Positions 184-11,602 of a stretch of DNA of 13,488 nucleotides are shown piece by piece. Origin of the DNA: Octopus sinensis. Its lineage: Eukaryota. Numbering within the stretch: position 1 is the stretch's first letter; each line of letters opens with the position of its first letter. The stretch is from NCBI RefSeq assembly GCF_006345805.1, contig NW_021826130.1, positions 1 to 13,488 on the forward strand. Direction: 5' to 3'. Position numbers and translations under genes: made by a program. The notes below the pieces were generated by a model. The model searched no databases and was not told where the DNA came from. It worked only from the letters and a program-made list of their open reading frames with translations.

Positions 184-362
184 CTGGTCAATGAAGGACC
201 ATTCTCTACTCAAATGACGGCAGAGAAGTATATAGACAAAGTGAGTGGAATTCCTGTGACCTGTCTTGGAATGAGGAACCATCCAGCTAATATTAATACT
301 TTCTGGAAGCAGCTGTATTCTGGGTTTTTCTATGAATTTTTTCCAGTTTTTCTTCTTTTTAT
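184..362 (-). CDS. Internal coding exon 4 of 4 ((D)KKKKNWKKFIEKPRIQLLPESINISWMVPHSKTGHRNSTHFVYILLCRHLSREWSFIDQ), phase 1-0; first half of an FN3-like domain
   Basis: Acceptor tctttgaattcttcacag|AT and consensus donor CAG|gtaagt. 179 nt within track ORF 142..480(-). Shows the P..SINISW..P...YIL..R...EW pattern of FN3 N-terminal strands, with N-glycosylation sequons NIS and NST. Confidence 0.82.
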
Positions 363-384
363 CTGTGAAGAATTCAAAGATAAG

Positions 385-430
385 TTTCTTTATTAGCCAC
401 AGAGGGCCGAACGCAGAGGGGACAAAATAC
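385..430 (-). mobile_element. Degenerate 3' tail fragment of SINE family A
   Basis: tttctttattagccacagagggccgaacgcagaggggacaaa resembles the tail tttctttactacccacaaggggctaaacacagaggg at 8401 and 11782. Confidence 0.65.
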
Positions 431-656
431 AATGTAGGGCTTTTCGTTTTGAAAATAGACCAAAAAAGAGGAGAAAGCAAAAATCAAAGTGAGCTCATTA
501 TATAGCTGTTACCATTCACTCTGATTCACCACCAGTTGAAGACAAAGTGACATCTGCCTCCCGTGACAACTGCGCCACACCATGTTCTAAACACCCTTAC
601 TGAGCCAGGAGAGTAATGGGAGGGAGCAAAAGAAACAAGTTTCCAACAACGAATTA

Positions 657-876
657 TGAGGTGTCACTGAAAAGTTCCTGGCTTTGGGTAAAAGAAAATA
701 CAGAAGGATCAGTTAATTATGATATTATCCATCATATTCCCCTCTCAGACTCACATACTTATTGCAGAGGTCCTTCAGTTATTCTAAGTCCTGTAAAAGT
801 ACTCGGAAGCTTAAGCCTCCAAAACTAGGCCTTTCACAATATCCTTAAAATCAGGAACTTTTCAGGCCACCTCTCA
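657..876. mobile_element. Mariner-derived MITE, copy 1
   Basis: Imperfect TIRs (tgaggtgtcactgaaaagttcctgg ... caggaacttttcaggccacctctca) flanked by TA at 655-656 and 877-878. Body matches the reverse complement of the mariner end at about 4700-4857. Confidence 0.85.
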
Positions 877-935
877 TATATATATATACACACACACACA
901 ACACACACACACATACATACATACATACATACATA
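877..935. repeat. (TA)n(CA)n(CATA)n microsatellite between the two MITEs
   Basis: Directly visible. Confidence 0.95.
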
Positions 936-1125
936 CAAGAGGGTGTCGAAAAGTTCCTGGCTTTGGCTAAGAGAAAATACAGGAGGATCAGTTAATTATG
1001 ATTTTATTCAACATATTTCCCTCTCAGATCCACACATTTATTGCAGCAGTCCTTCAGTTTTTCTAAACACTGTAAAAGAACTCGGAAGGTCGGGCCTCCA
1101 GCCAGGAACTTTTCAGAGCCCCTTG
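936..1125. mobile_element. Mariner-derived MITE, copy 2, with an internal deletion relative to copy 1
   Basis: TIRs caagagggtgtcgaaaagttcctggc ... gccaggaacttttcagagccccttg, with TA at 934-935 and 1126-1127. Confidence 0.85.
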
Positions 1126-1197
1126 TACAAGCACTTAAAGAATTTTGGTGTAACAAAGCACCTGATATGACTAATGCAGGTTTAAATGGTTAACAGA

Positions 1198-1545
1198 GTT
1201 AAGTTAAGTTAATTTTTTGGCTCAAAAAGCAAAAAGCAAGGCCATGTAGGGGGACATGGAGTTATGTACAGGGTGGTGCTCATGCAAAGAGTTCAGGCCA
1301 TTTCTGGTCAAGAGAGACTTTGAATCGAGCGGTCGTCGGCATCTTCACTATCTCGTCCGGCAGCTTATTCCACGGATCCGCAACCCGGATGGAGAAAGCC
1401 CCTCTCCTTCGATTGAGATGAAATCGTCGCAGATAGAGCTTTTCGGTGTGACCCCGCAGCCGATGCTCTGGAGCAGGAGTGAAGAACAGCTCTTTCGAGA
1501 GGTTACACTTTCCGCTTATGATGTTGTGAGCAAGAATGAGATTAC
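1198..1545 (-). mobile_element. CR1-clade LINE 3' end (ORF2 C-terminus, 3'UTR, (TTAAC)n tail), 5'-truncated
   Basis: RGHTEKL...RRGAFSIRVADPWNKLPDEIV...FKVSLD fits the CR1 ORF2 C-terminal RGH-x2-KL...FSxRV...WNxLP...FK..LD pattern. Short repeat tail at 1198-1212. Confidence 0.85.
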
Positions 1546-1697
1546 TTAATAAATACCAGGCCTTCTTAAGGAGCGTAGCAAGACCGTTACCAATGAACGT
1601 TGCATCGTTGAGGCCTAAATAGTCGGACATCGGCTCATCCTGCATGCTCCTAATGATTGGTCACTTAACCCAGTCATGTGATGGTGTAATACTTACT

Positions 1698-1773
1698 ATT
1701 TTACTCTTTTATTCTTTTACTTGTTTCAGTCATTTGACTGTGGTCATGCTGGAGCACCGCCTTTAGTCAAGCA
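1698..1773 (-). mobile_element. 3' end of SINE family B
   Basis: Reverse complement matches 2798-2868, including the gagtaaaa tail repeats. Confidence 0.85.
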
Positions 1774-1846
1774 TATGGAATCTTTCTGATTTGTGAGAGA
1801 AGCTATTTAAGCTTTCTGCTAACAATAATAAAAGAATTTTATTTAC

Positions 1847-1898
1847 CTTGCCGTGGTTTGCTTCTGTAGAAACTACATGATTCCTGACAGCCATTCAT
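1847..1898 (-). CDS. Internal coding exon 3 of 4 (MNGCQESCSFYRSKPRQ+G), phase 0-1
   Basis: Acceptor ttttttttttatttctttctag|ATG and donor CAAG|gtaaat. 52 nt. Completes a GCxxxCxF motif and its phase matches both neighbours. Confidence 0.85.
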
Positions 1899-2004
1899 CT
1901 AGAAAGAAATAAAAAAAAAATACAATTAATGAGTGATTAGAAATGATAAAACATTTAATTGTAATTAGTAGAGCACAGGTTCCCAACTAGTGTGCTGCAG
2001 CACC

Positions 2005-2260
2005 CTGAGGTGCTGCAAGATCAACTGGGGGCTACCGTGAGCTCAACCAAGGGGTGCCACAAGATCAACTGAAGGGTGCTGTGAGATCAACCGAGGGGTG
2101 GCACAAGATCAACCGAGGGGTGCCACAAGATCAATTGAGGGGTGCTGTGAGATCAACCGAGGGGTGCCACATATCGACTGAGGAGTGCTGTGAGATCAAC
2201 AAAGGGGTGCCACAAGATCAGCTGAGGGGTGCCGTGAGATCAACTGAGGGGTACCCCACA
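2005..2260. repeat. ~22-bp minisatellite (gaggggtgcYRYRagatcaacY), about 11-12 units
   Basis: Directly visible; it produces the repetitive track ORF 2054..2278. Confidence 0.9.
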
Positions 2261-2468
2261 ATATACGTACATATGTAGTATCATGATTGATCATTTAGAG
2301 TCAGAAATACATTTTGATACTTATTTTATCGATAAATATTATTGTCATCTTATATTTTGTATTCCTGTCTATCACATTTTTGTATTGTCATCTATTTTAT
2401 GCTTATTATATCAACATTAGTGAAATAAACAAAATTTTTTATTATTAATTCCAGGGACATAGTTTTCT

Positions 2469-2868
2469 GGCGTAGAAGTGGCTGTGTGGTAAGTAGCTTG
2501 CTTAGAGCCACATGGTTCCAGGTTCAGTCCCACTGCGTAGCACCTTGGGCAAGTGTCTTCTACTATAGCATTGGGCCGACCAAAGTATTGTGAGTGGATT
2601 TGGTAGACGGAAACTGAAAGAAGCTCGTCATATATATGTATATATATATATATATGTGTGTGTATATATGTTTTTCCCCCCAACATTGTTTGACAACCGA
2701 TGCTGGTGTGTTTACGTCCCCGTAACTTAGCGGTTCAGCAAAAGAGACTGATAGAATAAGTACTAGGCTTACAAAGAATAAGTCCTGAGGTCGATTTGCC
2801 CGACTAAAGGTGATGCTCCAGCATGGCCACAGTCAAATGACTGAAACAAGTAAAAGAGTAAAAGAGTA
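2469..2868 (+). mobile_element. Full-length tRNA-derived CORE-like SINE (family B) with an internal TA/TG microsatellite
   Basis: A-box-like gtggctgtgtggtaag, B-box-like ggttcagtccc, CORE-like accttgggcaagt and gagtaaaa tail. Flanking duplication tccagggaca(t/a)agtttt at 2450-2466 and 2876-2892. Confidence 0.85.
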
Positions 2869-3099
2869 GATGTTATCCAGGGACAAAGTTTTATTATAAT
2901 GATGGTGAATCAAAAAGCAACTGTTATATTAGATTTTCTAATAGGGGTGCCGTGGATTTCTGAAATGCTCAACAAGGGTGCTTTGAGGCAGAAAAGTTTG
3001 GGGTACTGTATAGTAGAGTATGCTATTGTTGTTGTTAGTGTTGTCATTGTATTTAGTTGTGAGTGGATATGAACATTGTTGTTAATATTGTTGTTGTTG

Positions 3100-3252
3100 T
3101 CCATCTGTCTTAATGTTCTGAGTTCAAATTCCACTAAGGTCGAGTTCGTCCTTTCGGGATCGTTAAATTAAGTACCAGTTGCGTACTTCGGTTGATCTAA
3201 TCGACTGACCCCCCACTCCAAAATTTTTGGGGAGGGAGCCAGAAAAGAATAT
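3100..3252 (+). mobile_element. Degenerate 5'-truncated SINE family A copy within (GTT)n sequence
   Basis: gttctgagttcaaattcc...ggtcga...cctttcgggatcg...aagtaccagttg matches the family A body. Confidence 0.8.
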
Positions 3253-3294
3253 TGTTGTTGTTGTTAACATGGAAAGGTGGCAGAATTGTCAGCA

Positions 3295-3385
3295 TGGCGG
3301 CGGCAGCGGTGGTTGTGGTGTTAGTGGTGGTGGTGATGGTGATGGTGATGGTGATGGTGAAGATGGCGGTGAAGGTGATGATGAT
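3295..3385. repeat. (GGC/GGT/GATGGT)n low-complexity repeat just downstream of the exon 2 donor
   Basis: Directly visible. Confidence 0.9.
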
Positions 3386-3402
3386 TTAAAAACAATACTA
3401 AC

Positions 3403-3477
3403 ACATATTTCTTCCAAGTGGCAGATGTTTTCCCAAAGTGCAAAATCTGAATAAAGCAAACTGCATGTTCTCCAACA
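3403..3477 (-). CDS. Internal coding exon 2 of 4 (CWRTCSLLYSDFALWENICHLEEIC), phase 0-0
   Basis: Strong acceptor ttttttttttcatttctgtgtttcag|TGT and donor TGT|gttagt. 75 nt of Cys/Trp-rich unique sequence between repeats. Confidence 0.85.
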
Positions 3478-3720
3478 CTGAAACACAGAAATGAAAAAAA
3501 AAATACTTAGAAACTGATTCTTGCATGTGCACGTGCATTGTCTGCGCGACTAAAAAAAATATGAACAGAAAGTCGAAACATACATAGCGTTGTTCCCCTA
3601 TTTTCTCCCTACATGCATGTTCTTAGATTAGTTGTTACGCAATGAGCTGGCCAAAAGTCCAAGAGACATGTTCTATAGCATCTTTCACAAATGAAACACA
3701 ACTAACTCACCAGTAATTTA

Positions 3721-3721
<1 letters not shown>

Positions 3722-3777
<56 letters not shown>

Positions 3778-3800
3778 TGTGTGTGTATATATATATATAC
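3722..3800. repeat. (TG)n then (TA)n microsatellite
   Basis: Directly visible. Confidence 0.95.
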
Positions 3801-3822
3801 ATGCCTGTATACCTGTATATAT

Positions 3823-4132
3823 GTGGAGGCGCAATGGCCCAGTGGTTAGGGTAGCAGACTCGCGGTTGTAGGATCATGGTTTCGATTCCCAGACTGGGTG
3901 TTGTGAGTGTTTATTGAACGAAAACACCTAAAGCTCCACGAGGCTCTGGCAGGGGGTGGTGGCAATCCCTGCTGTACTCTTTCGCCACAACTTTCTCTCA
4001 CTCTTTCTTCTGTTGGCCTGCTCGCTTAGCCAGCGGGGTGGCGTCATTTGGAGGCTAAAACAATGCGAAGCGCATTGTGACCAGCGATGTGTAGCAACAT
4101 CTGATATCCTGGTCAGTCACGGTCACGGTCAC
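3823..4132 (+). mobile_element. tRNA-SINE family C, tail type 1 ending in GTCACG repeats
   Basis: A box tggcccagtggttagg and B box ggtttcgattccc. TSD atacctgtatatat at 3809-3822 and 4133-4146. Confidence 0.85.
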
Positions 4133-4146
4133 ATACCTGTATATAT

Positions 4147-4407
4147 GTGGAGGCACATGGCCTAGTGGTTAGAGCAGCGGTCGAGGGATCGCGGGTTCAA
4201 ATCTCAGACCGGGCGATGTGTGTGTTTATGAGCGAAACACCTAAGCTCCGCTGACTCTTTCGCCACGACTTTCTCTCATTCTTTCTTCCTGCATCTTGCA
4301 GCTCACCTGTGATGGACCGGCGTCCTGTCCAGGTGAGGAACCTATAAGCCAAGGATACCGGGAAACCGGCTCTTATGAGCTAGGTGTGGCTTGAGGAGGA
4401 ACAAACA
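4147..4407 (+). mobile_element. tRNA-SINE family C variant, tail type 2
   Basis: A box tggcctagtggttag, B box gggttcaaatctc and tail cctgtgatggaccggcgtcctgtccagg...gaaaccgg. TSD atacctgtatatat at 4133-4146 and 4408-4421. Confidence 0.85.
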
Positions 4408-4432
4408 ATACCTGTATATATATTCCTATATA

Positions 4433-4857
4433 TTGAAGCAGAAACGCCATGGAAAGTTGAGCTGTGGAGTCCTGCTTTTGCAGGACAATGCTCCAGCACA
4501 CACAGCACATGAAACTCTAGAAAATACACGAATTTGGCTTTGAATTGGTAGACCACCCACCCATCTTGCTCTCCTGACTTGGCCCCCTCCGAGTATCACC
4601 TCGGAGAAACATCACAACTGAAGAAACATCTCGAGAGAACGAAATTTCTCTCCGATTTGCAAGGGGTTTGCTGCTACAGAGGCCTGTCTGGAGCCCCCAC
4701 TTTCCGAGTTCTCTTTATAAGGCTTAGAAAAAGTGAAGGGCTGCTGCAATAATAAGTATGTGAATTTGCGAGGCAAAGATGCTGAATAAAATTGTAAGTA
4801 ACTGATTCTCCTGTATTTTCTTTTACCGAAAGCCAGAAACTTTTCAACGCCTCCTTG
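4433..4857 (+). mobile_element. Mariner transposon 3' remnant: frameshifted transposase C-terminus plus right TIR
   Basis: Translates LKQKRHGKLSCGVLLLQDNAPAH, then after frameshifts FELVDHPP and SPDLAPSEYHL, matching the mariner HDNARPH and HPPYSPDLAPSDYHLF motifs. Ends in aagccagaaacttttcaacgcctccttg. Confidence 0.9.
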
Positions 4858-4897
4858 AGTGTGTATGTGTGTGCGTGTGTGTGTGTGTGTGTGTGTA

Positions 4898-4929
<32 letters not shown>

Positions 4930-4940
4930 GTGTGTGTTTG

Positions 4941-4974
<34 letters not shown>

Positions 4975-5057
4975 TTTGTTGTGTGTGTGTGTTTGTGTGT
5001 GTGTTTGTGTGTGTTGTGTGTGTGTGTGTTTGTGTGTGTTTTGTGTGTGTGTGTTGA

Positions 5058-5101
<44 letters not shown>

Positions 5102-5112
5102 TTGTGTGTTTG

Positions 5113-5143
<31 letters not shown>

Positions 5144-5166
5144 TTGTGTGTGTGTTTGTTTGTGTG

Positions 5167-5208
<42 letters not shown>

Positions 5209-5230
5209 TTTGTGTTTGTGTTTGTGTGCG
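4858..5230. repeat. ~370-bp imperfect (GT)n microsatellite
   Basis: Directly visible; source of the HT- and CV-repeat track ORFs. Confidence 0.97.
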
Positions 5231-5362
5231 TGCATGATGCCTGAAGCATCTGATATTTATCCCTTGCTAATGTACTGAACTGATAATGCCACTTATTATG
5301 TCAGCGACACCGTTCTGTCACTGATAACATTCACCAGATGATAATGTTTGTATCTGCCCCCC

Positions 5363-6278
5363 TCCTCTCTACTATAGGCACAAGGCCTGAAATTTAGGTG
5401 GAGGATTCTTGTCGATTACATCAACCTCAGTGTTTCACTGGTACTAAATTTATTGATCCCTAAAGGATGAAAACCAAAGTTGACCTCGGCGGAATTTGAA
5501 CTCAGAACGTAGCGGCAGCAAAAAACCTATTTCTTTACTGCCCACAAGGGTCTAAACACAGGGGACAAACAAGGACAGACAAACGGATTAAGTCGATTAT
5601 ATTGACCCCAGTGCGTAACTGGTACTTATTTAATCTACCCCAAAAGGATGAAAGGCAAAGTTGACCTTGGCGGAATTTGAACTCAGAACGTAGCAGCAGA
5701 CAAAATACCTATTTCTTTACTGCCCACAAAGGGCTACACACAGAGAAGACAAACAAGGACAGGCAAACGGATTAAGTTGATCATATCGACCCCAGTGCGT
5801 AACTGGTACTTATTTAATCGACCCCGAAAGGATGAAAGGCATAGTTAACCTCGGCGGAATTTGAACTCAGAACGTAGCGGCAGCAAAAAACCTATTTCTT
5901 TACTACCCACAAGGGGCTAAACATAGAGGGGACAAACAGATTAAGTCGATTATATCGATCCCAGTATGTAACTGGTACTTATTTAATCGATCCCGAAAGG
6001 ATGAAAGGCAAAGTCGACTTCGGCGGAATTTGAACTCAGAACGTAACGGCAGACGAAATACCTTTTTCTTTATTACCCACAAGGGGCTAAACACAGGGGA
6101 CAAACAAGGACAGACATAGGTATTAAGTCGATTACATCGACCCCAGTGCGTAACTGGTACTTATTTAATCGACCCCAAAAGGATGAAAGGCAAAGTCGAC
6201 TTCGGCAGAATTTGAACTCAGAACGTAACGGCAGACGAAATACCGTTGAGCATTTCGCCCGGCGTGCTAACGATCCTG
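5363..6278 (-). mobile_element. Tandem array of SINE family A: one partial head plus five bodies, the last with a different tail
   Basis: Unit junctions at 5527/5528, 5709/5710, 5892/5893 and 6062/6063 (spacing 182, 183, 170). The tRNA-like head occurs only at about 6244-6278. Confidence 0.92.
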
Positions 6279-6514
6279 TGAATGTTCTAAAGTGATGCTG
6301 TTGGAAGTAGATCCTCGTCGTTCATCGATAAGCGTGGGTTCAATTCTTTGATTAGGTGACTTACTAAGGTGACTGGTTGAGTATACCAGAGACACGTTTA
6401 TCCTTAACGCAATTCTCCAATGAAAAGGTGGCCAGTCAAAAATAAACTAAAACTTAAGAGAAATGAGTGAATATACATAAGTAAAGGGAAGAAACACTAA
6501 TATAACATACTCAC

Positions 6515-6568
6515 GTTATTGCATCTACCCGAGCATTCATTTTCAGTGTCAGCATTCATTGGTTGGAA
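6515..6568 (-). CDS. Internal coding exon 1 of 4 in window (FQPMNADTENECSGRCNN), phase 0-0, of a Cys-rich + FN3-like protein
   Basis: Minus strand reads ttattttattttccatccttag|TTC...AAC|gtgagt. 54 nt, no stop. Joins the next exon in frame to give CSGRCNN-CWRTC. Confidence 0.82.

Positions 6569-6596: not shown

Positions 6597-6660
<64 letters not shown>
6597..6660. repeat. (AAT)n microsatellite, about 21 units
   Basis: Directly visible. Confidence 0.97.
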
Positions 6661-6949: not shown

Positions 6950-7650
6950 ATGAGGGCTGCTGATATCTGTCTCGTCTTTCGAGTCTGGATCTCTGCAGTT
7001 TATAGAGACGTACTCAGCGATCAGAGTAAATGACGTGTCGGAAAGTCCAGTATGCGATCTGTCCGTCAGGAGTGATCCCCCTGTCTACCTCTGTGCATAC
7101 TGACTCTAAAAGTTTCAAGGTACATCCCGCGAGAACTAGGGTATGGAAAATCCGTGTTTGCATATGTGAACGACGTCGCCGTAATATTGTCAGACACTAA
7201 ACAAATGGTGATTGGCACTTCTGAAGGAATATAAGGCGGTCATAGGAGCAACAATTAACCAGGGGAAGTCCTTGTGTTCGCAGCTCAGTATTTGGAAATG
7301 TAGGCCCATACCGTCTAACAACAGGTTCATACCGTCGTTGCGTGCTGGACAGACGGTCCGGTTAAAGAGCTCGGGCTTTGGTTTGGTTTGGTCCAGATCT
7401 CCAGGTGGACAAAAGAAAATGGGCCAAACTATCCCAGAAGGGTCGAGCAGTAGTGGCGAACGCCTACATCATATCTATCATCTACTACCCCTTGACTATC
7501 GCACAGTGCCCCGCTTCATGTCTAATCAGAATGGAACGCCCTGCTCTTCCACTTTTTGTGGAGCGGACGCGTCCCGTAAGTCAGATGGTCTATTTGCTGT
7601 GAGCATCTGTGAGTGGAGGGTTGGGTATGCCATGATTAATGATGCGCACC
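6950..7650 (+). mobile_element. Decayed Tx1/L1-group LINE reverse transcriptase fragment
   Basis: Remnant motifs in the expected order across frameshifts: SVRQ, FAYVNDV (AYADD-like), LKEYKAVIGATINQGKS, VWFGPD, LSQKGRAVVANAYIISIIYY, GGLGMP. Confidence 0.8.
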
Positions 7651-9628: not shown

Positions 9629-9917
9629 AAGGAAGGAAGGAAGGAACGAACGAAGGAAGAAAAAACAAACAAACAAACAAACAAGAAAAGTAGGGAAGGG
9701 AAGAAGGAAGTGTAGAAACGGGATGTAAAGGAAATGGGTGCAAAGTGAAAGTCGACTGACTCCGGTCGTTGACGGATCAGTTGTTGTGTCAGAGATGCAA
9801 TGATAAGACAAGTGCAGATGTGGTGCAGACTCGATAATGCAGCTGGGGTCATGGCAACAGTGGATACAAGCGATGTGGGTTGGCAGCCTTCGACATTTTT
9901 TTTCTATTCAAGGAGTT

Positions 9918-11347
9918 TTATTTTTAACCCCCCCCCCCCAATCGAAATTGCGGAAGGCGGCGAGCTGGCAGAACCGTTAGCACGCCGGGCGAAATGCGTA
10001 GACGTGTTTTCGTCTGCCGTTATGTTCTGAGTTCAAATTCCGCCGAGGTCGACTTTGCCTTTCATCCTTTCGGGGGTCGATAAATTTAAGTACCAGTTAC
10101 GCACTGGGGTCGATGTAATCGACTTAATCCGTTTGTCTGTCCTGTTTATTTTTACACCCCCCCCCCAATCGAAATGCGGAAGGCGGCGAGCTGGCAGAAC
10201 CGTTAGCACGCCGGGCGAAATGCGTAGACGTATTTCGTCTGCCGTTATGTTCTGAGTTCAAATTCCGCCGAGGTCGACTTTTGCTTTCATCTTTCGGGGG
10301 TCGATAAATTAAGTACCAGTTACGCACTGGGGGTCGATTAATCGACTTAATCCTTTGTCTGTCCTGTTTATTTTTACCACCCCCCCCCCCATCGAAATGC
10401 GGAAGGCGGCGAGCTGGCAGACCGTTAGCACGCCGGGCGAAATGCGTAGACGTGTTTTCGTCTGCCGTTATGTTCTGAGTTCAAATTCCGCCGAGGTCGA
10501 CTTTGCCTTTCATCCTTTCGGGGGTCGATAAATTAAGTACCAGTTACGCACTGGGGTCGATGTAATCGACTTAATCCGTTTGTCTGTCCTGTTTATTTTT
10601 ACCCCCCCCCCCCCCCCAATCGAAATGCGGAAGACGGCGAGCTGGCAGAAACGTTAGCACGCCGGGCGAAATGCGTAGACGTATTTCGTCTGCCGTTATG
10701 TTCTGAGTTCAAATTCCGCAGAGGTCGACTTTACCTTTCATCCTTTCGGGGGTCGATAAATTTAAGTACCAGTTACGCACTGGGGGTCCATGTAATCGAC
10801 TTAATCCGTTTGTCTGTTCTTGTTTGTCCCCTCTATGTTTAGCCCCTCGTGGGTAGTAAAGAAATAGGTATTTCGTCTGCCGCTACGTTCTGAGTTCAAA
10901 TTCCGCCGAGGTCGACTTTGCCTTTCATCCTTCCTGGGTCGATAAATTTAAGTACCAGTTACGCACTGGGGTCGATGTAATCGACTTAATCCGTTTGTCT
11001 GTCCTGTTTATTTTTAACCCCCCCCCCAATCGAAATGCGGAAGGCGGCGAGCTGGCAGAACCGTTAGCACGCCGGGCGAAATGCGTAGCTGTATTTTCGT
11101 CTGCCGTTATGTTCTGAGTTCAAATTCCGCCGAGGTCGACTTTGCCTTTCATCCTTTCGGGGGTCGATAAATTAAGTACCAGTTACGCACTGGGGGTCGA
11201 TATAATCGACTTAATCAGTTTATCTGTCCTTGTTTGTCCCCCTCTATGTTTAGCCCATTGTGGGTAGTAAAGAAATAGGTATTTCGTCTGCCGCTACGTT
11301 CTGAGTTCAAATTCCGCCGAGGTCGACTTTGCCTTTCATCCTTTCGG
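9918..11347 (+). repeat. Tandem array of SINE family A copies, each with the same ~35-38-bp poly(C)-containing 5' flank
   Basis: SINE starts at 9956, 10182, 10405, 10633 and 11043, each preceded by atttttaC(n)aatcgaaatgcggaa. Units 4 and 5 also carry a tail plus a second headless body. Confidence 0.93.
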
Positions 11348-11602
11348 AAAAGACTGATAAATATAAGCAACATCCCTGCTATTGAATAATAACATACAGA
11401 TCAAAGTAAGGAATATTAGTTGAACACTCCTACCGAAACGCCTACGAAGCGCAAGCATAACAGATTTGACATAGTTATTTGAGACAGAAAACAAAAGTTT
11501 TGTACACTCATAGAGGTTAGCTGCCTTGAAGATGAGAACATCTCTTCCAAAATTAGTGAGAAAGAGAATGTCTTACTTAGCCCGTCGGTAACGCTTTCAC
11601 GG

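What the first reader, a model, noticed from the sequence alone, without database searches (positions are those of the whole stretch)
184..6568. Four-exon gene segment: anosmin-like Cys-rich module joined directly to FN3, with no WAP domain
Seen: four small minus-strand exons with canonical sites and matching phases splice to 360 nt with no stop: FQPMNADTENECSGRCNNCWRTCSLLYSDFALWENICHLEEICMNGCQESCSFYRSKPRQDKKKKNWKKFIEKPRIQLLPESINISWMVPHSKTGHRNSTHFVYILLCRHLSREWSFIDQ. Cys spacing is C-x3-C-x2-C-x3-C-x13-C-x5-C-x3-C-x3-C-x-F. Known: anosmin-1/KAL1 has an N-terminal CxxCxxxC...CxxxCEF Cys-rich region, then a WAP domain, then FN3 repeats. Inference: here a very basic linker (RSKPRQDKKKKNWKK, possibly heparan-sulfate binding) stands where WAP would be. 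That suggests a poorly characterised fend-like or ROS1/Sevenless-like extracellular protein. Exons 1 and 3 do not appear in frame in the ORF track.
Basis: partly seen in the sequence, partly recalled or inferred. Interest (0 to 1): 0.7.

Follow-up and report, generated by a model that had tools for sequence, protein, structure and literature searches.

The report
Octopus NORK receptor kinase, split gene
These four exons are real and encode the outer tip of an octopus cell-surface receptor tyrosine kinase of the mollusc NORK family, whose gene was likely broken in two by a gap in the genome assembly; it likely helps regulate nerve-fibre growth, and its ligand is unknown.

Summary
The four exons have AG/GT ends and splice to 120 codons without a stop. 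One transcript-type contig runs through all four and leaves no room for a WAP exon.

The protein is not a secreted anosmin variant. The peptide matches residues 42-161 of an 871-residue Octopus vulgaris protein (119 of 120). That protein continues through 12 exons on contig C25, just below an assembly gap. Its layout is: signal peptide, ten-cysteine helical cap, three FN3 domains, one membrane helix, intact tyrosine kinase.

Its relatives are a mollusc-wide family that includes Aplysia NORK (neurite outgrowth regulated kinase; kinase 70% identical). The cap joins FN3 directly in every relative that has this region, so no WAP is the family norm, not an octopus loss. The very basic linker appears only in the octopus gene and its two closest relatives. 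Octopus has a second paralogue.

Verdict: a new member of a known, little-studied family, mislabelled FGFR3/Ret in databases. The open idea is that NORK is the molluscan Torso-type receptor for Trunk/PTTH-like peptides, one of which is encoded in this genome. My tests of that were inconclusive.

The parts
6515..6568 (-). Coding exon (54 nt, phase 0/0): loop and two cysteines of the Cys-rich cap; residues 42-59 of P0003
   Evidence: covered with both ends loose in an X3 contig
3403..3477 (-). Coding exon (75 nt, phase 0/0): helices 2-3 of the cap, three cysteines; residues 60-84
   Evidence: its first 30 nt are the loose end after exon 1
1847..1898 (-). Coding exon (52 nt, phase 0/1): last cap helix with two cysteines and start of the basic linker; residues 85-102
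   Evidence: joint to 362 in runs X1 and X3
184..362 (-). Coding exon (179 nt, phase 1/0): basic linker and first strands of FN3 domain 1; residues 102-161. The next exon is outside the window, at G000:C25:8399329 downward (phase 0)

Best explanation
The four exons encode most of the cysteine-rich cap and the start of the first FN3 domain of an octopus receptor tyrosine kinase of the molluscan NORK family, whose kinase-coding half lies on contig C25 and was likely cut off by an assembly gap; the receptor likely binds a secreted protein ligand, likely dimerises and phosphorylates itself, and likely regulates nerve-fibre growth.

Shown: the exons and splicing; the match to a full-length database protein; the domain order; intact catalytic motifs; family membership by kinase identity and tree.

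Predicted: a four-helix cap and three FN3 folds.

Inferred from general RTK knowledge (recalled): ligand-driven dimerisation; phosphorylation of the single activation-loop tyrosine Y747; docking at Y537, Y548, Y674 and Y857. Y857 sits in a YLDL motif just after the kinase, like the PLC-gamma site of FGFRs (recalled), so output through PLC-gamma and Ras/ERK is likely.

Inferred from the Aplysia orthologue: a role in restraining neurite growth.
For: Window peptide equals P0003 residues 42-161 at 119 of 120; the C25 model P0002 equals P0003 residues 167-871 at 699 of 705. Twelve exons on C25 (8399332 to 8379457, minus) code residues 161-871 and begin 1.8 kb below the only N gap in the 200 kb fetched. 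Splice phase matches across the break. Two O. bimaculoides models (P0001, P0005) also join window exons 3-4 to the C25 exons.

Kinase domain 566-844, E 2e-91. Gly-loop, VAIK, HRDLAARN and DFG are present; hydrophobic stretches at the N-terminus and 493-517.

36 hits among 3893 candidates, every named one a mollusc, including Aplysia NORK. Kinase 69.8% and ectodomain 20% (E 8e-18) identical to Aplysia NORK. The NORK kinase matches the C25 exons at 48-81%, against 33-56% for seven other octopus kinase loci. The tree groups gastropod and bivalve members by class. Y537, Y548, Y747 and Y857 are kept in 26 of 26 rows and Y674 in 25 of 26. Models. Fold search returns FN3 domains.
Against: No read or contig was shown letter by letter to join exon 4 to the C25 exon; the link rests on orthologous proteins, phase and gap position. 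The signal-peptide exon was not found in G000; it is known only from P0003 and a 30-nt contig end. The tree is a quick, midpoint-rooted one without outgroup, and P0003 sits on a long branch that meets another long branch. The kinase part of the P0003 model is low-confidence (mean pLDDT 61.7, pTM 0.32). The neurite role comes from a paper I could not read (title only) and from another mollusc class. This paralogue ends 14 residues after Y857, while seven relatives printed have long tails, so its signalling may differ.
Confidence: 0.86

Rival explanations
1. Same gene, sharper identity: NORK, and so this gene, would be the molluscan counterpart of insect Torso and would be activated by the Trunk/PTTH-like cystine-knot peptide encoded at G000:C23.
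For: A Trunk/PTTH-like gene is in this genome. Its C-terminal domain equals, by eye, the octopus fragment in the supplement of PMC6660194, and its best PDB match is PTTH (5aoq_L, E 0.12, weak). The published mollusc 'torso' rows that I saw were kinase-domain fragments of another group (LPYKW-type loop); five NORK motifs gave 0 hits in that file and it holds no octopus or Aplysia receptor. By eye, Drosophila Torso shares with NORK a one-tyrosine activation loop ending GKLPIKW and a short strand 2-3 loop. A Cys-rich tip plus three FN3 domains in Torso is recalled, not from a call, apart from the Pfam name FN3_Tor_3rd.
Against: PF23008 (FN3_Tor_3rd) matched none of 12 family members at E up to 10. 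PMC5176290 (section 17) finds Nork only in molluscs and annelids and equally close to FGFR and RET. PMC6660194 assigns another mollusc group to torso. Tribolium Torso has a longer strand 2-3 loop than the fly, so that resemblance is weak, and the activation loop is similar in FGFR-type kinases too.
Confidence: 0.3
2. The window is a short secreted anosmin- or fend-like protein (or a soluble decoy) that ends just after exon 4, as the partial model P0004 reads.
For: P0004 (123 aa, marked partial) reads six residues into the intron. Predicted-structure neighbours of residues 25-200 are anosmins, fend and an unnamed arthropod FN3 protein.
Against: Exon 4 ends mid-FN3, before its last strands. Contigs of X1 and X3 stop matching at 184 and carry 240 and 557 more letters, with no depth in the intron bin 100-163. 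Three database proteins continue into the C25 exons.
Confidence: 0.04
3. The window belongs to a different paralogue or stray haplotype and not to the C25 gene.
For: The window is a whole unplaced contig and shares no unique overlap with the gap flanks. A paralogue exists.
Against: The paralogue is only 28% identical in the ectodomain and maps to C10, C10328 and C5816. Exon 4 has a single full-length DNA match in G000. Both halves match the same protein at 99%.
Confidence: 0.03

Closest known systems
Aplysia NORK (neurite outgrowth regulated kinase; NP_001191646.1, P0039/P0046; Hislop et al. 2004, title only seen)
   Same: Same domain order, same ten-plus-four cysteine pattern, same juxtamembrane motif; kinase 69.8% identical; ectodomain alignable at E 8e-18.
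   Different: Octopus has two paralogues. This one is on a long branch, has a much more basic cap-FN3 linker and lacks the long C-terminal tail.
Anosmin-1/KAL1
   Same: Predicted structure of residues 25-200 overlays anosmin models at TM 0.72-0.75 by query. The Ig_ANOS1 family PF28407 is precomputed on 3 of 36 relatives.
   Different: No WAP; three FN3 domains; membrane helix and kinase present. Pfam Cys_box did not match 12 of 12 members scanned.
ROS1/Sevenless CATCH domain (PMC11743138, PMC13044245; passages read)
   Same: An N-terminal cysteine-rich four-helix unit directly before an FN3 domain in an RTK; the model here has four helices at 28-97.
   Different: ROS1 has beta-propellers and an ectodomain of about 1,840 residues; this one is about 470 with none. 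The cap was not superposed on CATCH, because FN3 hits filled the fold-search lists.
Drosophila-type fend (forked end) and an unnamed 401-aa arthropod FN3 cluster
   Same: Top predicted-structure neighbours of the cap plus FN3-1 (TM 0.80 for the unnamed cluster, 0.51 for fend). Fend also appears for the third FN3.
   Different: About 400 residues, too short to hold this ectodomain plus a kinase.
Insect Torso (PTTH/Trunk receptor)
   Same: Ret/FGFR-like kinase with similar loops by eye; FN3-based ectodomain (recalled; Pfam name FN3_Tor_3rd).
   Different: No Torso-specific profile match; orthology not tested with a tree; ligand untested.
Database labels 'FGFR3-like', 'Ret', 'ephrin receptor'
   Same: The kinase profile is nearest FGFR and RET chains in the PDB.
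   Different: No Ig, cadherin or ephrin-binding domain found. PMC5176290 places Nork outside the FGFR family.

Membership tests
NORK (lophotrochozoan RTK) | Kinase domain closest to Aplysia NORK among the genome's kinases | tested here: met
   69.8% overall; C25 exons 48-81% against 33-56% for seven other loci. The C10 paralogue is a co-orthologue and was not in that comparison.
NORK (lophotrochozoan RTK) | Ectodomain homologous to NORK's, with the same cysteine pattern | tested here: met
   E 8e-18. Cap cysteines are kept in 18-23 of the 18-23 rows that cover each; C274, C283, C339 and C349 in 26 of 26.
NORK (lophotrochozoan RTK) | Single membrane helix, conserved juxtamembrane motif, catalytically complete kinase | tested here: met
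NORK (lophotrochozoan RTK) | Falls in one clade with NORK against outgroups | tested here: inconclusive
   Quick tree of 28 family rows, no outgroup, long branch for P0003
NORK (lophotrochozoan RTK) | Kinase-dependent inhibition of neurite outgrowth | not testable with these tools
   Title of Hislop 2004 seen in a reference list; details recalled
Anosmin-1/KAL1 | WAP domain between Cys box and FN3 | tested here: not met
   No room in the transcript contig; a short linker in all relatives that cover it; no PF00095 in 12 of 12
Anosmin-1/KAL1 | Secreted, without membrane helix or kinase (recalled) | tested here: not met
Anosmin-1/KAL1 | Cys_box domain (PF17869) | tested here: inconclusive
   No HMM match, but predicted-structure overlay with anosmin models
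ROS1/Sevenless | YWTD propellers in a very long ectodomain | tested here: not met
   Ectodomain about 470 residues, three beta-sandwiches only
ROS1/Sevenless | CATCH: two disulfide-stapled helical hairpins | tested here: inconclusive
   Four helices with ten cysteines predicted; cap not searched alone
fend | Membrane protein without a kinase (recalled; 406-aa cluster) | tested here: not met
   Kinase present
Torso | Torso-specific FN3 profile or fold match | tested here: inconclusive
   No PF23008 match; 5aoq receptor chain not among listed hits; these lists are capped or low in sensitivity
Torso | Clade with insect Torso in a kinase tree | not tested
   No Torso sequence was available as a tool-held protein
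Torso | Activation by Trunk/PTTH | not testable with these tools
   Needs a binding or cell assay; a candidate ligand gene exists
FGFR / RET (database labels) | Ig or cadherin-like ectodomain (recalled) | tested here: not met
   fold search gives FN3

The most novel reading that the evidence does not exclude
NORK is the real molluscan Torso: an orphan neuronal receptor that is switched on by Trunk/PTTH-like peptides, duplicated in cephalopods, and built from the same cysteine-cap-plus-FN3 tip as anosmin, fend and ROS1. The published mollusc 'torso' set would then be a different receptor group.
Probability: 0.3. Interest if true: 0.68.

Novelty: new member of a known kind. Interest (0 to 1): 0.33.

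Why it matters
As it stands this is an annotation repair. One receptor gene is split into an 'uncharacterized' fragment and an 'FGFR3-like' fragment, and the family carries wrong labels (FGFR, Ret, ephrin receptor). It also gives NORK a readable ectodomain: a predicted cysteine-rich helical cap and three FN3 domains. I found no paper describing that in the held library (searches; most subscription journals are not held). Octopus regenerates arms and nerves (general knowledge), so two paralogues of a receptor reported to inhibit neurite regeneration are worth testing. If NORK proves to be the Trunk receptor, an orphan receptor and an orphan peptide family in molluscs would be paired.

Tried and rejected
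- Pfam scans of single exons, P0001 and P0004: no family.
- Single-sequence PDB searches of the ectodomain: nothing significant. Ectodomain profiles gave titin, phosphatase and cytokine-receptor FN3 domains; the Torso chain was not listed.
- Fold searches used the Dreissena ectodomain model (P0045), not the octopus one. They returned generic FN3 hits (best Z 11.2, many ties; anosmin-1 1zlg rank 3 and ROS1 rank 32 in Foldseek, not separated from the rest). The cap was not tested alone.
- PF23008 in G000: nothing rang, controls included, so uninformative. PF17869 in G000: 10 matches, none over the cut-off; the three read were not convincing, so the octopus anosmin gene was not located.
- Complex prediction of the ectodomain with two copies of the Trunk-like domain: no answer (0.16 and 0.15 against a mark of 0.34; my alignment was not used).
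- Signal-peptide exon: not found by tblastn in 200 kb of C25 plus the window, nor by three patterns in G000 (0, 136 uninformative, and 0 matches). It probably lies in the gap.
- Exact pattern for the published mollusc 'torso' loop in G000: 0 matches.
- No holder was on record as RNA. X4 had no cover on the exons, X10 covered exon 4 only, and X2, X5 and X16 laid nothing on exon 1.
- Two of the 7 hits (P0007, P0008) are repeat-like translations and were dropped. P0039 was mis-anchored in the linker count and P0004 duplicates P0003; both were left out of the 22.
- The first 45 residues of P0001 match more than 100 scattered loci and were rejected as a repeat-derived false start.
- Hislop 2004 and the Torso-PTTH structure paper are not held.
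- Earlier findings: nothing relevant.
Full report
Observation. The window is a whole unplaced contig, G000:C2601. Contigs of two runs from two studies (2 of 4 laid) skip the 1846-363 intron at CT..AC. One contig (1 of 4 runs laid on exon 1) joins exon 1 to the first 30 nt of exon 2. Its positions leave exactly 127 nt, exons 2 plus 3, between exons 1 and 4. So no WAP exon is present in that transcript. The runs are only guessed to be RNA. The upstream loose end of the same contig codes two more cysteines, matching P0003 residues 32-41.

What the gene is. Exon 4 found an O. bimaculoides protein, P0001, whose later part maps to C25. That led to P0002, a 705-residue 'FGFR3-like' kinase. Its cluster holds P0003 (O. 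vulgaris, 871 aa, labelled Ret) and P0004, a partial model on a 13,488-base contig. The window peptide equals P0003 residues 42-161 at 119 of 120, and P0002 equals residues 167-871 at 699 of 705. Twelve exons on C25 (8399332-8379457, minus) code residues 161-871, starting 1.8 kb below a 100-N gap, the only one in 200 kb. The phase fits. The simplest reading is one gene whose 5' part fell into the gap. No read was shown to span the break, and the signal-peptide exon was not found in G000.

Anatomy. Hydrophobic N-terminus; cysteine cap (residues 34-92, ten cysteines, four predicted helices); FN3-type sandwiches at about 116-197, 229-335 and 365-460; a C339-C349 pair in the hinge; membrane helix about 493-517; kinase 566-844 with all catalytic motifs. 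The P0003 model is modest (mean pLDDT 61.7). Fold searches with it return FN3 domains and did not test the cap. In the Atlas, residues 25-200 overlay an unnamed arthropod FN3 cluster (TM 0.80), anosmins (0.72-0.75) and fend (0.51); these are predicted models on both sides.

Family. Residues 25-600 of P0003 found 36 proteins among 3893 candidates. All named ones are molluscs, under mixed labels, and they include Aplysia NORK. The cap joins FN3-1 through a short linker in every relative that covers the region. Neither WAP, Cys_box nor FN3_Tor_3rd matched any of 12 members scanned to E 10. In one search only 25 of 32 families were shown, none of them these. The kinase is 69.8% identical to Aplysia NORK and the ectodomain 20%. 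Seven other octopus kinase loci score 33-56% against NORK, the C25 exons 48-81%. A quick, unrooted tree of 28 rows groups gastropods and bivalves by class and leaves two cephalopod-type lineages; P0003 is on a long branch. The second octopus paralogue lies on C10, C10328 and C5816. The basic linker has 9 K/R in 18 residues here, 8 and 6 in two unnamed close relatives (taken as cephalopod from the tree and from likeness to the octopus paralogue), and 0-5 in 22 others. It is a lineage trait, not a family replacement for WAP.

How it likely works. By general RTK knowledge (recalled), a ligand brings two receptors together and the kinases phosphorylate Y747, then docking tyrosines. Y537, Y548, Y747 and Y857 are invariant in 26 rows and Y674 is kept in 25. 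The YLDL motif at Y857 resembles the FGFR PLC-gamma site (recalled). The Aplysia gene was reported to inhibit neurite regeneration (title of Hislop 2004 in a reference list; the paper itself was not held). PMC5176290 (passages and section 17 read) calls Nork lophotrochozoan-only and neither FGFR nor RET. In ROS1 the CATCH cap packs against the receptor's own later domains (PMC11743138, PMC13044245; passages).

The Torso question. PMC6660194 (passages; supplement 1, parts 1, 61, 62, 102 and 104 of 104, plus two searches) reports torso in lophotrochozoans. The 12 mollusc receptor rows I saw were kinase fragments of another group; most that show the activation loop have an LPYKW-type one. One mollusc row was in a part I did not read. 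Five NORK motifs gave no hit, and octopus and Aplysia appear only among the ligands. This genome has a Trunk/PTTH-like gene at C23, and oyster has four such precursors, two expressed only in visceral ganglia (PMC8398477, passages). Against the idea: no Torso profile match, and the published assignments point elsewhere. I could not build a tree with Torso, so orthology stays open at about 0.3. PMC6303783, PMC9071555 and PMC11121662 (passages) gave background on Torso ligands but no ectodomain description. Unread supplement parts and subscription papers may already link NORK to Torso or describe its ectodomain.

Verdict. This is a new member of a known but little-studied receptor family, split by the assembly and mislabelled. 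Interest 0.33; about 0.68 if it proves to be the Trunk receptor.

Noticed in passing
G000:C25:8379457-8399332 and 8401107-8401206: The rest of the gene (12 exons) lies just below a 100-N gap; the window contig likely belongs in that gap.
   Followed up: yes
G000:C10:40843375-40855445, C10328, C5816: Second NORK paralogue, also split over three contigs; it keeps the long C-terminal tail.
   Followed up: partly
G000:C25:8379457: This paralogue stops 14 residues after the YLDL tyrosine, in both P0002 and P0003, while relatives have long tails; its branch is also long.
   Followed up: partly
L034:1254-2567 minus (G000:C23, about 14906.5-14907.9 kb): Trunk/PTTH-like precursor in one long open frame, with acidic and basic low-complexity prodomain; no second copy found with its C-terminal domain.
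   Followed up: partly
L032:1498-2253 and L033:1498-2250: Two intronless Noggin-family genes (C2650 and C5), both over the Pfam cut-off.
   Followed up: no
L049:920-1135 (G000:C14:57096413-57096637): Kinase exon with an LPYKW-type loop, a possible member of the group published as mollusc 'torso'.
   Followed up: no
L045, L047, L046 (G000:C26, C8, C19): RTK kinase domains without introns; by recalled motifs Ror-like, MuSK/Nrk-like and FGFR-like. The C19 one has stops inside and may be a processed pseudogene.
   Followed up: no
P0001 residues 1-45: The start of the O. bimaculoides model matches more than 100 scattered loci, so it is likely a repeat spliced in by the gene predictor.
   Followed up: yes
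window 5400-6290 and 9900-11350: Head-to-tail arrays of a short interspersed repeat that also occurs many times on C25.
   Followed up: no
window 1200-1570 and about 7000-7500: Retroelement-like fragments by eye (1200-1570 is very deep in all four runs; 7000-7500 shows a worn reverse-transcriptase-like motif on the plus strand).
   Followed up: no
window 2020-2250, 4880-5230, 6597-6660: A roughly 25-base minisatellite, a long CA repeat and a TTA repeat directly before the exon 1 acceptor.
   Followed up: no
window 244: A>C difference in contigs of X1 and X3; third position of a threonine codon, so silent.
   Followed up: partly
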